From: a virus | Lineage: Duplodnaviria > Heunggongvirae > Uroviricota > Caudoviricetes | Virus record (IMG/VR): IMGVR_UViG_2563366968_000005 | Location: 1-43,077 of that record | Direction: 5' to 3' (one strand) | Length of the DNA stretch: 43,077 nt | In this document: in pieces, positions 37,401 to 43,077 of the stretch | How the letters are laid out: the number at the start of each line of letters is the position of its first letter | How positions within the stretch are numbered: the first letter of the stretch is position 1 | Position numbers: made by a program

Positions 37401-40400
37401 TAAGGTTACTGGTATTGCAATGGTTTCTGATACTCGAGAAGAGTATGAGAAATACATAGATGAAAAGGTTATTGGACAAAGAACCATAGACTTAAAAGAT
37501 AAAGAATAAGAAAATCCCACCGTCAGGTGGGTTTTTTATAAGGAGTAATCATGATTTACCCATCAAACAACCCACCAGTTTGCCTGATTGGATGCCAGCC
37601 TTGCAGTTTTTATGGAATTAATTATGCCATGCTCAAGAGCCTTGTTAGCATCCAAAATGGTCGAGTCTGCTATCAGGGATGCCCACCTAATATGGGTTCC
37701 GATGTCGATATTGAACGTCTCAACGAAGCGATCAAGATCGTTATCGAGGCATTTCCCGTACTCTCTCAATCTGGCATGGTCGGCGGCTGGGGAGGCAAAG
37801 CACCATAATAGAGGATGTAACAGGAATCTTGATAATGGGTTTGCGAAACGTTCTGAGCCAGCCAGGAAAACGATATTAGCTATGGATTCAACATTGCTTA
37901 TGTTGTGAGTTCTAACGGTAACAGGGAGTGACTTAAGAAAGTTATACGCAGTAAAGCCAGCGGCAGTTTCCCCTCCCTGACTTGATATATGGATATTTAA
38001 TTCAGTTGCGCCTTGAGATAATGCGGTGAGACAGTGGTTCTGAAGTTGCCCAACAGTGGCAGTGTTAACGGGGCATAAGAAATGAATTGTGTGCAGCATT
38101 ATTTTTCATCCTTACCATACATGGTCTTTAGCGTCTCAAGCAGCGCCTCTTTGAATTTGTCAGCTTCTTGCTGAGCAAATGACTCAACTGACTTTGGCGA
38201 CCTATCTTCATCAATCGCGGCTTGCAAAATCATGACGATCTCGGAGTTAACAGAGCGACCATTTTTTGATGCTCTGACAGCAAGAGCCTCGCGTAAAGAT
38301 TCAGGGATTCTTACCGTAGTTGGAGAAATTGACACACCCTTTGCCATATCACACCTTTGGTATTCAATTTGATAGCAAAGTGTATGCAAAAAAATTTTGA
38401 CTAGATATACTCACTTTGATATCTTTTGTATTCGGAAAGAGTTGTTTGTGTGGAGGGTAACATGGAGAAAGAAATAAGTAAGATTTTGGTAAGGATGCCG
38501 CAGTCGTTAAAGGATGCTATAGGTAGCAGGGCAAAGGAAGAGTGCAGGTCGTTTAACTCAGAGGTTATCAAGCGCCTGATAGACAGCTTGAAGAGAGAGG
38601 GGGTAATGGTATGAGTAAAGAATGTTGTTTCTGCGGCATTAGCGAATCAGACGCTGATCAAACATACATTTACTCTAAAGAAACAGGTCGGATGCTGTGT
38701 AGTGACTGCGTGTTGGACATCATAAGATACAAGCATCTTGGATGTTCTGCCAGCATTAGCAATATAGGTGAAGTATATGAAGGGAAAGATATAACTGATA
38801 GATCAGAAAGTTGAAGCCCCAACTGCGGGAACAGTCAGGGCTTCGGTTGTCAGTAAATCCGTGGAGAAAAACCAACATGAATAGTATAGCAATTTTAGAA
38901 GCAGTGAACACCTCTTACGTACCATTCAACGGTCAGCAAATTATCACCGCCATGGCTGCCGGAGTTGCATATGTTGCGATGAAGCCAATCGTTGAAAACC
39001 TCGGAATGAGCTGGGGTACTCAGCAACAAAAACTTATGAAACAACTAGATAAGTTCAACTGTATTCATATGAATATGGTTGCTGCTGATGGAAAGCTTCG
39101 TAAGCTACTCTGCCTTCCTTTGAAGAAGTTAAATGGATGGCTGTTCAGCATCAACCCCGAGAAAGTTCGTGCTGACATCCGCGATAAACTGATTCAGTAC
39201 CAGGAAGAATGCTTTACTGTGCTGCATGACTACTGGACAAAGGGAAAGGCAGAAAATGCACGTAAGAAAACATCTGTTGATGACAGGACTCCGCTTCGTG
39301 ATGCTGTAAATATGCTGGTCAGCAAAAAGCATCTAATGTACCCAGAAGCTTATGCAATGATTCATCAGCGTTTCAATGTGGAAAGTATTGAAGAGCTTGA
39401 TGCATCTCAGATACCGCAAGCCGTAGAGTACATCCACAGGGTAGTGCTTGAAGGTGAGTTCATTGGCAAACAAGAGAGGAAAGTCAACGAGCTTTCTGCA
39501 AAAGAAGCAAACAGCCTTGTATGGTTATGGGATTATGCCAACCGCTCACAGGCATTATTCCGCGAACTGTATCCGGCGCTGAAACAAATTCAATCGAACT
39601 ATTCCGGCAGATGTCATGACTGCGGTTATGAGTTCTCCCGTATTATCGATATAGCGAGAGATGTTTTAATCAACCATACACGAGATGTTGATATTAATGA
39701 GCCAGACGGACCAACGAATCTTTCCGCATGGATGAGACTTAAGAATAAAGAATTACCTCCTTCAGTACATAACTACTGACAGATAACCAACGCAACGACC
39801 CAGCTTCGGCTGGGTTTTTTTATGCCCAAAATTCACCGTAGCCATGCTGCGGCGATTCCTTGTGTCTGGAGCAAATTAAATGAGAGACATTACAGCCAAT
39901 GTGATCGTATCGATGCCTTCGCAACTCTTCACTATGGCGCGTTCTTTTAAAGCCGTAGCCAATGGCAAAATTTATATCGGTAAAATTGACACTGACCCTG
40001 TAAATCCTGAAAACCAGATTCAGGTTTATGTGGAAAACGAAGACGGCTCTCACGTTCCTGTTTCGCAACCAATCATCATTAACGCTGCTGGATATCCTGT
40101 ATATAACGGACAGATTGCCAAATTCGTAACTGTGCAAGGCCATTCTATGGCTGTTTATGATGCGTATGGTGCGCAGCAGTTCTATTTTCCGAATGTGCTG
40201 AAGTATGATCCTGATCAGTTACGGCGGCAATTAGAAGACCCAGATGGAGCGAATAAATACCCAAAACTTCAGATAGCAAGATGGAGAGACAGTTATGATG
40301 TAAGAGGTTGGGGGGCTATTGGTGATGGTGTTCATGATGATACATCAGCTCTATCAGAATTACTTTCTGTTGCAACAGGTGGTGAAAAGATAGATGGGCG

Positions 40401-43077
40401 AGGGCTTACTTTTAAAGTATCAACTCTTCCAGATGTCAGTCGATTTAAAAATGCTCGTTTTTTATTTGAGAGAATACCGGGTCAGCCTCTTTTTTATGCT
40501 TCTGAAGATTTTATCCAGGGAGAGTTATTTAAAATTACAGATACACCGTGGTACAACGCCTGGACGCAGGATAAAACGTTTGTATATGACAATGTCATCT
40601 ATGCGCCTTTTATGGCTGGAGACCGCCATGGTGTAAATAACCTCCATGTTGCATGGGTTCGCTCAGGAGATGACGGGAAGACCTGGACAACGCCGGAATG
40701 GCTTACAGATTTACATGAAAACTATCCCACAGTTAACTATCACTGCATGAGTATGGGGGTTGTCAGAAATCGCCTTTTTGCTGTAATTGAGACGCGGACC
40801 GTGAGAGGAAATAAACTGCAGGTTGCAGAGTTGTGGGATCGCCCAATGAGTCGCAGCCTTCGCGTTTATGGTGGTATAACGAAAGCAGCAAATCAGCAAG
40901 TCGCTTATATTCGCATTACTGATCACGGATTATTTGCTGGTGATTTTGTCAACTTCTCAAACTCTGGTGTTACAGATGTTACCGGGAATATGACGGTGAC
41001 TACTGTTATTGATAAAAATACCTTTACAGTTACGACGCAAAATACCCAGGATGTGGATCAGAATAACGAGGGTAGATACTGGAGTTTTGGCACATCATTT
41101 CACTCGTCACCATGGAGAAAAACCAGTCTTGGAACTATTCCTTCTTTTGTTGACGGAAGCACTCCTGTTACTGAGATTCACAGTTTTGCGACGATTAGCG
41201 ATAACAGTTTTGCTGTTGGCTACCATAATGGTGATATTGGTCCACGCGAGCTTGGGATACTCTATTTCTCTGATGCTTTCGGTTCTCCTGGTAGCTTTGT
41301 TCGCAGACGCATACCTGCAGAATATGAGGCGAATGCATCTGAGCCATGTGTAAAATATTATGATGGCATTCTGTATCTGACGACCAGGGGGACATTAAGT
41401 ACTCAACCCGGTAGTTCATTGCACAGAAGCTCTGATTTAGGTACATCATGGAATTCTCTTCGCTTCCCAAATAATGTTCATCACTCAAACCTTCCTTTTG
41501 CCAAAGTTGGCGATGAGCTGGTTATTTTTGGCAGTGAGCGCGCATTTGGTGAGTGGGAAGGAGGAGAACCTGATAACCGTTATGCAGGAAATTATCCAAG
41601 AACATTTATGACCAGAGTTAACGTCAATGAGTGGAGTCTGGATAATGTAGAGTGGGTTAATGTTACTGATCAGATTTATCAGGGCGGAATAGTTAACTCT
41701 GCGGTTGGTGTTGGTTCAGTTTGTATCAAAGACAACTGGCTGTACTACATTTTCGGTGGGGAAGATTTTCTAAACCCATGGAGCATAGGGGATAACAACA
41801 GAAAATATCCTTATGTTCACGATGGTCACCCGGCTGATTTGTATTGTTTCAGGGTGAAAATTAAACAGGAAGAATTTGTTTCAAGGGATTTTGTCTACGG
41901 AGCCACTCCTAACAGAACGCTTCCTACTTTTATGTCGACGTCAGGCGTGAGGACGGTTCCTGTACCCGTTGATTTCACAGATGATGTTGCCGTCCAGTCA
42001 CTGACTGTCCATGCAGGTACATCAGGACAAGTTCGCGCGGAAGTCAAACTTGAGGGTAATTACGCCATTATTGCGAAGAAAGTACCGTCTGATGATGTTA
42101 CCGCTCAGAGATTAATCGTTAGCGGCGGTGAAACAACGTCTTCAGCAGATGGTGCAATGATAACGTTGCATGGTTCCAGAAGCAGTACTCCACGTCGCGC
42201 GGTATATAACGCACTCGAACATCTTTTTGAGAACGGAGATGTTAAACCTTATCTTGATAATGTAAATGCTCTTGGTGGTCCGGGAAACAGGTTCTCGATA
42301 GTTTATCTTGGCTCCAATCCTGTGGTTACCAGTGACGGAACATTAAAGACAGAGCCGGTCTCTCCTGACGAAGCATTGCTGGATGCCTGGGGTGACGTCA
42401 GGTATATCGCTTATAAATGGCTGAACGCTGTCGCTATAAAGGGGGAAGAAGGGGCGAGGATACATCATGGTGTAATCGCGCAGCAACTTCGTGATGTTCT
42501 TATTTCTCACGGACTCATGGAAGAAGAAAGCACAACATGCTGCTATGCCTTTCTTTGCTATGACGATTATCCCGCAGTATATGATGACGTCATTACTGGC
42601 CAAAGGGAAATGCCGCTGACTGATAATGACGGGAGCATCATTGTTGATGAGGATGATAATCCAGTGATGGTAATGGAAGACATCATTGAGCGCGTTGAAA
42701 TAACGCCAGCAGGATCTAGATGGGGGGTCAGACCTGATCTCTTATTCTATATCGAGGCAGCATGGCAGCGCAGAGAAATAGAAAGAATAAAAGCTAGGTT
42801 AGACTTAATAGAAGGGAAGCACTAAATGTTTCGTTGGCGTCAAAAATATGAACTGATCACATAAAGAAGTAAGTACATTGGCAAAAAACATTGACGTCAA
42901 CGAAATTAAATATAAAAATTTAAATGCTTTTTAATGACAAGAAAAGTAACTAGTGGTAAAATAACGTAGGATACTAATATGTTAAGACTCAAGACTCAAG
43001 ACTCAAGACTCAAGACTCAAGACTCAAGACTCAAGACTCAAGACTCAAGACTCAAGACTCAAGACTCAAGACTCAAG

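What the first reader, a model, noticed from the sequence alone, without database searches (positions are those of the whole stretch)
39880..42825. Chimeric tailspike: P22-type head-binding domain, endosialidase-like body and self-cleaving chaperone domain
The first about 115 residues closely parallel the P22 gp9 capsid-binding domain, while the C-terminal 150 residues carry the …[17 protein letters not shown]… signature of intramolecular chaperone domains that are cleaved off endosialidase-type fibres. With the neuO-like repeat next door, this points to a K1 polysialic acid capsule-specific phage. The receptor specificity module appears to have been swapped onto a P22-like virion within a lambda-immunity genome.
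Basis: partly seen in the sequence, partly recalled or inferred. Interest (0 to 1): 0.55.

Follow-up and report, generated by a model that had tools for sequence, protein, structure and literature searches.

The report
Known CUS-3-type K1 endosialidase tailspike

Summary
The ORF lies exactly where stated (39880..42825, + strand, 981 aa), and every part of the description holds.

- **Domains (Pfam, all far above curated cut-offs):** P22 Head_binding (1-113), endosialidase N-terminal extension, six-bladed beta-propeller with inserted beta-barrel, stalk, and Peptidase_S74 chaperone (818-878).
- **Conserved residues:** all published endoNF catalytic residues and the Ser/Lys self-cleavage dyad are kept.
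- **Identity:** the gene is 99.2% nt and 99.0% aa identical to siaK1 of phage CUS-3, which is annotated as an experimentally shown endosialidase (PMID 16689790). It occurs full-length in 181 of 5,426 complete E. coli genomes.
- **Side claims also hold:** the neuO AAGACTC repeat starts 159 nt downstream, the virion genes are P22-type, and the repressor is lambda cI.

What differs from CUS-3 itself is the host phage. It is a mosaic integrated at the lambda att site (ybhC side) rather than at argW. That second site for CUS-3-like phages is already published (PMC9659370) and is seen in strain CE10.

The gene has two substitutions not seen in most copies, I548V and R888C. Both are shared with strain VR50.

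Verdict: observation confirmed, interpretation supported, already known, low interest.

The parts
39880..42825 (+). Complete tailspike gene (siaK1-type endosialidase), 981 aa, 109.5 kDa precursor
   Evidence: ORF. 99.2% nt identity to CUS-3 siaK1, with 10 aa differences. Mass computed.
39880..40218 (+). P22-type head-binding (virion-docking) domain, residues 1-113
   Evidence: Pfam PF09008 at 221 bits. 75% identity to P22 gp9 1-113, with similarity ending at YDPDQ113. PDB matches 1lkt, 2vnl and 7sg7. 15 of the 25 nt differences from CUS-3 fall in nt 1-361.
40219..40515 (+). Linker/neck (residues 114-145) plus endosialidase N-terminal extension (146-212); this zone holds the recombination junctions
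   Evidence: K1F similarity starts at residue 114 (blastp 114-980 against K1F 214-1064, 62%). Pfam End_N_terminal covers 146-212. The Gally tailspike, which has a different body, shares residues 1-159 at 90%. Nucleotide identity to Uetakevirus ZX5 jumps to 98-100% between gene nt 450 and 540 (90-nt bins); the ZX5 megablast match starts at nt 522.
40516..41865 (+). Catalytic six-bladed beta-propeller (residues 213-662) carrying H250, R456, E488, R503 and R554
   Evidence: Pfam End_beta_propel, E=1.3e-232, full model length. E=0 to endoNF chains 1v0e/3gvl. Residue mapping.
40849..41097 (+). Beta-barrel domain inserted in the propeller (residues 324-406); it holds one of endoNF's polysialic-acid binding sites
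   Evidence: Pfam End_beta_barrel, 153 bits, 83/83 model positions. PMC12632334 places one of three polySia binding sites in the beta-barrel.
41866..42330 (+). Stalk / triple-beta-helix (residues 663-817) with stalk-site residues R744, S755, M760 and oxyanion R804; the mature protein is predicted to end at T817
   Evidence: Pfam End_tail_spike, 260 bits. The solved mature endoNF chains end at the residue aligned with T817. Residue mapping.
42331..42822 (+). C-terminal intramolecular chaperone / self-cleaving domain (residues 818-981, 18.6 kDa) with the S818/K823 dyad; carries the window-specific R888C
   Evidence: Pfam Peptidase_S74. 3gw6 match at E=5e-93. Dyad mapping. R888C.
39797..39816 (+). 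Strong intrinsic-terminator-like hairpin (8 bp, 5 GC, T-run) between ant and the tailspike, inside the 100-bp 'bsq1 boundary sequence' of CUS-3
   Evidence: Terminator scan. CUS-3 annotates bsq1 at this place. The 100 bp are 97% identical to CUS-3.
42979..43077 (+). 5' end of neuO (polysialate O-acetyltransferase) with the phase-variable AAGACTC repeat; at least 13 copies, cut off by the end of the window
   Evidence: Sequence. CUS-3 annotation of the poly(psi) domain. Repeat described in PMC3046976.

Best explanation
The ORF is the receptor-destroying tailspike of an apparently intact CUS-3-type (P22-like, Lederbergvirus) prophage of E. coli K1.

Shown by sequence homology:
- It has three functional modules: a P22-type head-binding domain, an endosialidase body and a self-cleaving chaperone domain.
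- All residues known to matter for catalysis and self-cleavage are conserved.

Inferred from work on endoNF, P22 gp9 and CUS-3:
- The 109.5-kDa polypeptide trimerises under the guidance of its C-terminal chaperone domain (residues 818-981).
- Once the triple-beta-helix stalk is correctly folded, R804 and the S818/K823 dyad are positioned so that the chain cuts itself at T817|S818. This releases an 18.6-kDa fragment and leaves a stable 90.8-kDa mature subunit.
- The N-terminal 113 residues dock the trimer on the P22-type tail hub (gp4/gp10, both encoded in the window).
[quoted passage not shown] Extra binding sites in the beta-barrel and stalk hold the polymer, so the virion can tunnel through the capsule to the outer membrane.
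- The gene is probably read from the late operon through the terminator that follows ant.
- The adjacent neuO gene O-acetylates the same polymer in the lysogen in a phase-variable way, which protects against K1 phages.

Evolutionarily, the protein is a module fusion with a sharp joint at residue 113/114. The catalytic and chaperone block still moves between phage types.
For: - Domain architecture, with all six Pfam models above curated cut-offs.
- E=0 sequence match to endoNF crystal chains, and 5e-93 to the chaperone structure 3gw6.
- 99.2% nt and 99.0% aa identity to CUS-3 siaK1, annotated with direct-assay evidence for endo-alpha-sialidase activity.
- Conservation of the catalytic, oxyanion and dyad residues, with their roles taken from PMC12632334, PMC8326128 and PMC3742443.
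- P22-type portal, coat, gp4, gp10, gp7 and gp20 in the same window, with ORF lengths that look intact.
- Junction mapping.
- A near-identical catalytic block in a Uetakevirus (ZX5) behind an unrelated N-terminus.
- The VR50 copy is identical over nt 682-2879 but differs at both ends.
- neuO repeat directly downstream. The protective role of neuO against K1 phages comes from PMC9659370.
Against: - Nothing contradicts the assignment.
- Activity, trimerisation and cleavage were not measured for this allele.
- R888C replaces an arginine conserved in CUS-3, ZX5, the closest chromosomal copy and K1F (endoNF R980). Its effect on chaperone function is unknown.
- Stalk-site residue Q853 of endoNF is M760 here, but it is also Met in CUS-3 and ZX5.
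- CUS-3-like prophages are reported to decay often (PMC9659370), and the CE10 copy at the same chromosomal site is frameshifted. An intact ORF therefore does not prove an inducible phage.
Confidence: 0.95

Rival explanations
1. The gene is intact in sequence but functionally dead cargo of a decaying, non-inducible prophage. Alternatively, the R888C change in the chaperone domain impairs folding or cleavage, so that no active tailspike is made.
For: - CUS-3-like prophages are described as prone to decay, with tail and coat pseudogenes in many isolates (PMC9659370).
- The CE10 copy at the same ybhC-bioA site has a 1-nt insertion.
- R888 is otherwise conserved out to K1F.
- Only 1 of 193 genomes carrying this stretch matches it exactly, i.e. 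with the Cys codon.
Against: - The ORF is uninterrupted and all catalytic and cleavage residues are kept.
- All P22-type virion ORFs in the window have full-length sizes.
- The Cys888/Val548 block is identical over 2.2 kb in VR50, inside a different prophage at a different chromosomal site. So the allele has been transferred or maintained rather than being a private lesion or a sequencing error.
- R888 is not the dyad or the oxyanion residue.
Confidence: 0.12
2. The central body is a depolymerase of another specificity, such as an O-antigen endorhamnosidase or a pectate-lyase-type capsule depolymerase, and only resembles endosialidases superficially.
For: - P22-like phages usually carry right-handed beta-helix O-antigen hydrolases behind the same head-binding domain (P22, Sf6, HK620).
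- The neck segment 114-165 is shared with tailspikes of other specificity (Gally, Vec13).
Against: - End_beta_propel scores 771 bits over the whole model, and End_beta_barrel and End_tail_spike are complete.
- The body matches endoNF crystal chains over 145-817 at E=0, with 55-78% identity to endoNF per domain and every catalytic residue kept.
- Similarity to P22 gp9 stops at residue 113.
Confidence: 0.01
3. The enzyme has a shifted substrate preference relative to endoNF, for example tolerance of O-acetylated polysialic acid made by the neighbouring neuO, rather than being functionally equivalent to endoNF.
For: - Only 55-78% identity to endoNF per domain.
- A 7-residue insertion (FVDGSTP, about residues 423-429) relative to endoNF.
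- Q853 is replaced by M760 in the stalk binding site, and K410 by G310.
- The phage itself encodes the acetyltransferase that modifies its receptor.
Against: - None of these differences touches the residues known to be critical.
- K410 was found dispensable in the K1F scan (PMC12632334).
- NeuO is reported to protect against K1 phages, which argues that acetylation hinders rather than helps endosialidases (PMC9659370).
- All these features are shared with CUS-3, so even if true this would not be new to this window.
Confidence: 0.1

Closest known systems
SiaK1, endosialidase tailspike of Enterobacteria phage CUS-3 (CP000711.1, ABQ88383.1; Stummeyer et al. 2006, PMID 16689790)
   Same: Same length (981 aa), same domain order, and 99.0% aa / 99.2% nt identity. 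The same 100-bp upstream boundary sequence (97% identical) and the same downstream neuO with its AAGACTC repeat.
   Different: 10 aa substitutions (T2R, T43P, Q116R, T121P, V207A, S309R, G366D, I548V, T832A, R888C, written CUS-3 to window). 15 of the 25 nt differences are concentrated in the first 361 nt. The host phage also differs: lambda-type integrase at the ybhC / lambda att site, lambda cI immunity, an HK97/Sf101-like early region and a different immI gene set. CUS-3 sits at argW.
EndoNF, tailspike gp17 of phage K1F (T7-like; PDB 1v0e, 3gvl, 3gw6)
   Same: Catalytic propeller, beta-barrel, stalk and chaperone domain are collinear from window residue 114 (K1F 214) to the C-terminus at 62% identity. 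All catalytic, oxyanion and dyad residues are conserved.
   Different: The N-terminal virion adaptor is T7-fibre-like in K1F and P22 gp9-like here (PMC5380687). The window protein has a 7-residue insertion in the propeller and an 8-residue insertion in the chaperone domain. It also has Q853M and K410G.
P22 gp9 tailspike (and Sf6 gp14, HK620 gp9)
   Same: The head-binding domain is 75% identical to P22 over residues 1-113, and 92.6% to HK620 over 4-124. The virion context is the same.
   Different: The body of P22 gp9 is a right-handed beta-helix endorhamnosidase without a cleaved chaperone domain. No similarity is seen beyond residue 113.
Tail fibre of Escherichia phage vB_EcoP_ZX5 (Uetakevirus, MW722083.1)
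   Same: 98.7-100% aa identity from residue 213 to 817 and 93% in the chaperone domain. The nucleotide match is 99.4% over gene nt 522-2914.
   Different: ZX5 has an unrelated, longer N-terminal adaptor (1039 aa in total) suited to an epsilon15-like virion.

Membership tests
Bacteriophage endosialidases (endo-N-acetylneuraminidases; endoNF/CUS-3 SiaK1 type) | Six-bladed beta-propeller catalytic domain of the endosialidase type | tested here: met
   Pfam PF12217, E=1.3e-232, model positions 1-367 of 367. E=0 to crystal chains 1v0e/3gvl over residues 145-817.
Bacteriophage endosialidases (endo-N-acetylneuraminidases; endoNF/CUS-3 SiaK1 type) | Catalytic and substrate-binding residues of endoNF (H350, R549, E581, R596, R647) | tested here: met
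   They map to H250, R456, E488, R503 and R554, all identical. The residue list comes from PMC12632334.
Bacteriophage endosialidases (endo-N-acetylneuraminidases; endoNF/CUS-3 SiaK1 type) | Beta-barrel insertion and triple-beta-helix stalk | tested here: met
   PF12195 at 153 bits (83/83 positions) and PF12219 at 260 bits (160/160 positions). Stalk-site R837 and S848 are conserved; Q853 is Met, as in CUS-3.
Bacteriophage endosialidases (endo-N-acetylneuraminidases; endoNF/CUS-3 SiaK1 type) | [quoted passage not shown] | not testable with these tools
   Known only by proxy: the 99%-identical CUS-3 protein is annotated with direct-assay evidence.
Peptidase S74 / C-terminal intramolecular chaperone (ICA) domain | Domain homology | tested here: met
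   PF13884 at 41.6 bits against a cut-off of 22. 3gw6 match at E=5e-93 over residues 698-979.
Peptidase S74 / C-terminal intramolecular chaperone (ICA) domain | Ser-Lys catalytic dyad five residues apart at the cleavage site, plus the stalk arginine (endoNF S911, K916, R897) | tested here: met
   S818, K823 and R804. Roles come from PMC8326128 and PMC3742443.
Peptidase S74 / C-terminal intramolecular chaperone (ICA) domain | Actual autoproteolytic release after trimerisation | not testable with these tools
   Predicted products are 90.8 kDa and 18.6 kDa. The R888C substitution is of unknown effect.
P22-type tailspike head-binding domain | N-terminal ~110-residue domain homologous to gp9 residues 1-113 | tested here: met
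   PF09008 at 221 bits (113/113 positions). 75% identity to P22 gp9. PDB matches 1lkt and 2vnl.
P22-type tailspike head-binding domain | Encoded in a genome with the P22-type tail hub it docks to (gp4, gp10, portal) | tested here: met
   P22_portal, P22_Tail-4 and Phage_stabilise (gp10, 995 bits), plus coat, gp7 and gp20.
Phage CUS-3 sensu stricto (prophage at argW, RS218 type) | Integration at argW with an IntS-type integrase adjacent to neuO | tested here: not met
   The left end of the window is ybhC followed by a lambda-type integrase. The CE10 homologue ends at ybhB/bioA. CUS-3 and NZ_OZ121081 have intS and tRNA-Arg next to neuO.
Phage CUS-3 sensu stricto (prophage at argW, RS218 type) | Genome-wide collinearity and identity with CP000711 | tested here: not met
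   CUS-3 is not among the listed top matches for window 1-22000; the best matches are 720R6, HK97 and Sf101. CUS-3 covers 68% of window 22001-43077 at 94.9%. So this is a CUS-3-like mosaic, not CUS-3.

The most novel reading that the evidence does not exclude
The window may hold a fully intact, inducible K1-specific P22-like phage with lambda immunity and lambda-site integration. Its tailspike allele (Val548/Cys888) would be a recent recombinant: the head-binding end is identical to the OZ121081 type, and the catalytic block is identical to the VR50 copy at torT. That would document ongoing exchange of the siaK1 cassette among at least three integration-site lineages of temperate phages (argW, lambda att, torT) and one Uetakevirus. 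The conserved-Arg-to-Cys change in the chaperone domain might then be a tolerated or adaptive variant.
Probability: 0.4. Interest if true: 0.2.

Novelty: already known. Interest (0 to 1): 0.1.

Why it matters
The finding has no discovery value. The CUS-3 endosialidase was published in 2006 as the model case of a capsule-specific catalytic module grafted onto a P22-type adaptor. Its homologue endoNF has crystal structures, mutagenesis and a full deep mutational scan.

The practical value is in annotation. RefSeq labels this gene only as "phage tailspike protein", yet its presence marks a K1-capsule-specific prophage and, together with neuO, phase-variable capsule O-acetylation. That trait is linked to virulence and to phage resistance in neonatal-meningitis and urinary-tract E. 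coli.

The mosaic details are modest additions to a known picture. They are the lambda-att/lambda-immunity backbone, a third site next to torT in VR50, and a near-identical catalytic block in a Uetakevirus.

Tried and rejected
1. **Non-sialidase body.** Rejected on Pfam, PDB and residue mapping.
2. **R888C as the oxyanion arginine of the self-cleavage site.** Rejected. That residue is endoNF R897 in the stalk, which maps to the conserved R804. R888 corresponds to endoNF R980.
3. **R888C as a sequencing error or private lesion.** Unlikely, because VR50 carries an identical 2.2-kb block that includes it.
4. **Tolerance data for R980 in the K1F deep mutational scan.** Not mentioned in the main text. 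The supplements were not opened.
5. **The primary papers.** Stummeyer 2006 (PMID 16689790) and King 2007 (PMC1951898) are not held in the library. Their content is cited only through the GenBank annotation and through reviews and later papers.
6. **Defence-system profiles (PADLOC)** on the immI-region proteins and on the tailspike: no hits.
7. **The exact prophage in complete E. coli genomes.** No genome covers 80% or more of window 35500-39900, so the source strain was not identified.
8. **Structure prediction and fold search.** Deliberately not run. With E=0 matches to crystal structures across all domains (55-78% identity per domain) they would add nothing.
9. **The large protein-database searches.** Skipped for the same reason.

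
Full report

Yes. The ORF listing returns one uninterrupted ORF at exactly 39880..42825 on the + strand: ATG start, 981 aa. The only other ORFs in the interval are short and lie inside it, in other frames or on the opposite strand. GC content is flat across the gene, at 0.40-0.475.

**2. Domain anatomy**

Six Pfam models match end to end and far above their curated cut-offs:

| Pfam model | Residues | Score |
|---|---|---|
| Head_binding | 1-113 | 221 bits |
| End_N_terminal | 146-212 | 125 bits |
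| End_beta_propel | 213-662 | 772 bits |
| End_beta_barrel (inserted in the propeller) | 324-406 | 153 bits |
| End_tail_spike | 663-817 | 261 bits |
| Peptidase_S74 "Chaperone of endosialidase" | 818-878 | 41.6 bits |

Matches to solved structures:
- Residues 145-817 match the mature endoNF chains of phage K1F (1v0e, 3gvl and related entries) at E=0.
- Residues 698-979 match the stalk-plus-chaperone structure 3gw6 at 5e-93.
- Residues 1-118 match the head-binding domains of Sf6 gp14 and P22 gp9 (7sg7, 2vnl, 1lkt).

**3. Residue-level tests**

I aligned the protein with full-length K1F gp17 (1064 aa), fetched from NC_007456, so that the published numbering applies.

- **Catalytic residues.** The deep mutational scan of K1F lists key catalytic residues, all conserved here: H350→H250, R549→R456, E581→E488, R596→R503, R647→R554 (PMC12632334).
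- **Other intolerant or interacting residues.** The scan also names Q330, K585 and N699 as intolerant and D331, H527 and S528 as their interaction partners. All six are conserved.
- **K410.** It is Gly here, but the same scan found K410 dispensable in the phage.
- **Stalk binding site.** R837 and S848 are kept. Q853 is Met760, as in CUS-3 and ZX5. The choice of these three residues as the stalk site rests on my recollection of the endoNF literature. I did not verify it in a held paper.
- **Self-cleavage centre.** S911/K916 map to S818/K823, and the stalk arginine R897 maps to R804. Their roles are described in PMC8326128 and PMC3742443.
- **Cleavage site.** The crystal chains of mature endoNF end at the residue aligned with T817. 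The predicted cut is therefore T817|S818, giving a 90.8-kDa mature subunit and an 18.6-kDa released fragment from a 109.5-kDa precursor. A review lists CUS-3 endosialidase at 109 kDa (PMC5380687).

**4. Identity with a known gene**

- megablast finds phage CUS-3 siaK1 (CP000711.1) over the full 2,946 nt at 99.2%. tblastn gives 99.0% aa identity.
- The CUS-3 record names it "endosialidase tailspike protein", with GO endo-alpha-sialidase activity, evidence code IDA, PMID 16689790.
- There are 10 aa differences and 25 nt differences. Fifteen of the nt differences lie in the first 361 nt.
- In RefSeq, 181 of 5,426 complete E. coli genomes carry a match covering at least 80% of the gene. The best is 99.7% (NZ_OZ121081), and the listed copies are labelled only "phage tailspike protein".

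**5. The chimera and its joints**

- Similarity to P22 gp9 is 75% over residues 1-113 and stops at YDPDQ113.
- Similarity to K1F starts at L114 (K1F 214) and runs to the C-terminus at 62%.
- A second joint lies about 50-60 codons further in:
  - Lederbergvirus Gally, whose tailspike has a different body, shares residues 1-159 at 90%.
  - Uetakevirus ZX5 has an unrelated N-terminus. In 90-nt bins its nucleotide identity jumps from 52-60% to 98-100% between gene nt 450 and 540, and its megablast match starts at nt 522.
- The copy in strain VR50 is identical to the window over nt 682-2879. It differs at 24 positions in nt 1-347, at one more (nt 681), and at 5 positions in nt 2880-2907.

The catalytic-plus-chaperone block therefore behaves as a cassette that is still being exchanged. 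That matches the published account of tailspike evolution by module exchange (PMC5380687).

**6. Context: the side claims also hold, with one refinement**

- **neuO.** Its ATG is at 42979. The AAGACTC repeat begins at 42984 and reaches the end of the window after 13 full copies. This is the poly-psi VNTR described for CUS-3 neuO. The phase state cannot be read because the repeat is cut off.
- **Virion genes.** They are P22-type: terminase, P22_portal, scaffold, P22 coat, gp4, gp10, gp7 and gp20. ORF sizes are full length.
- **Repressor.** The repressor at 12474-13187 is lambda cI, with 3 differences in 236 residues against PDB 3bdn. The immunity region is 97.9% identical to HK97.
- **The refinement.** The phage is not CUS-3 itself.
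  - The window begins with host ybhC (pectinesterase family), followed by a lambda-type integrase with an arm-binding domain.
  - The early region matches HK97, Sf101 and 720R6 rather than CUS-3.
  - CUS-3 covers only 68% of the late half, at 94.9%.
- **The same layout elsewhere.** Strain CE10 (O7:K1) has tailspike, then neuO, then ybhB/bioA. Its tailspike carries a 1-nt insertion after gene nt 1886.
- **A third site.** VR50 carries the gene next to torT, without neuO.

**7. Upstream region**

- Between the ejection-protein genes and the tailspike lies a P22-type immI region: a P63C-domain protein, a ClpP-like protein, two Arc-family repressors, a 67-aa ORF and Ant.
- A textbook sar antisense RNA lies at 38809-38876 on the - strand (RF00262, 95.6 bits).
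- A strong terminator-like hairpin at 39797-39816 separates ant from the tailspike. It sits inside the 100-bp stretch that CUS-3 annotates as boundary sequence bsq1, which is 97% identical here.
- By analogy with P22, the tailspike is probably transcribed by antiterminated late transcription reading through this hairpin. That is inference and was not tested.
- No complete E. coli genome has this exact immI gene set, and none of its proteins hits a PADLOC model.

**8. What is particular to this allele**

Two substitutions are absent from CUS-3, ZX5, K1F and the closest chromosomal copy: I548V and R888C.
- R888 corresponds to endoNF R980 in the chaperone domain. It is not the dyad and not the oxyanion arginine.
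- Only VR50, among the 193 genomes that have this stretch, matches it exactly.
- The effect of the substitution is unknown. It affects a domain that is discarded after folding.

**9. Verdict**

However, the object is the published CUS-3-type endosialidase tailspike, so its novelty is "already known".

The best mechanistic account is the standard one, in this order:
1. Chaperone-assisted trimerisation.
2. Ser/Lys autocleavage at T817|S818.
3. Docking on the P22-type tail through residues 1-113.
4. Processive hydrolysis of the K1 polysialic-acid capsule.

The only open points are whether this particular prophage is inducible and whether Cys888 matters. Both are minor. Interest is 0.1.

Noticed in passing
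window 1-2588: The window starts in host ybhC (pectinesterase family, - strand, runs off the left end), followed by a lambda-type integrase with an arm-DNA-binding domain (1419-2588, -). This CUS-3-like prophage therefore sits at the lambda/HK97 att site, not at argW. Strain CE10 has the same arrangement ending at ybhB/bioA, and the site is mentioned in PMC9659370.
   Followed up: yes
window 36454-39779: The immI region has a gene set not found as a whole in any of 5,426 complete E. coli genomes. It comprises a P63C-domain protein (36514-37509), a ClpP-like protease homologue (37563-38099, -) abutting an Arc/RHH gene (38099-38389, -), a second Arc (38426-38614), a 67-aa Cys-rich ORF (38611-38814) and Ant (ATG at 38877 to 39779). 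There are no PADLOC hits. The role of the ClpP-like/RHH pair is unexplained.
   Followed up: partly
window 38809-38876 (-): A sar antisense RNA (Rfam RF00262, 95.6 bits, full length) overlaps the ant start region. It is a classic P22 immI feature.
   Followed up: yes
window 42541-42543 (codon 888) and 41521-41523 (codon 548): R888C replaces an arginine conserved in CUS-3, ZX5, OZ121081 and K1F (endoNF R980, chaperone domain). I548V is the other substitution private to this allele. Both are shared with strain VR50, whose gene is identical over nt 682-2879.
   Followed up: partly
L009 (E. coli VR50, NZ_CP011134.1 1122226-1125171): This intact siaK1-type tailspike lies in a P22-like prophage adjacent to torT, with no neuO downstream. 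The sequence diverges from the window about 90 nt after the stop codon. It is a third chromosomal location for the cassette.
   Followed up: partly
L002 (Escherichia phage vB_EcoP_ZX5, MW722083.1 2542-5661): A Uetakevirus (epsilon15-like) tail fibre of 1039 aa carries the same catalytic-plus-chaperone block at 99.4% nt identity behind an unrelated N-terminus. This indicates very recent transfer of the endosialidase cassette between phage genera.
   Followed up: partly
window 42934-42962: The best sigma-70-like promoter match in the region is ATGACA-17-TAAAAT with an extended -10 TG (10 of 12 matches). It ends 17 nt upstream of the neuO ATG at 42979. No terminator-like hairpin was detected between the tailspike stop and neuO.
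   Followed up: no
window 12474-13926: The cI repressor is nearly identical to lambda cI (3 differences in 236 residues against PDB 3bdn), and a CII homologue follows. The region is 97.9% identical to HK97. The phage thus combines lambda immunity and lambda-site integration with a P22-type virion.
   Followed up: yes
L003 (phage phiv205-1, MN340231.1): In this APEC prophage the same tailspike gene is interrupted after about nt 207 by an IS element (two transposase ORFs). The head-binding fragment is left as a separate 'bifunctional tail protein' ORF.
   Followed up: no
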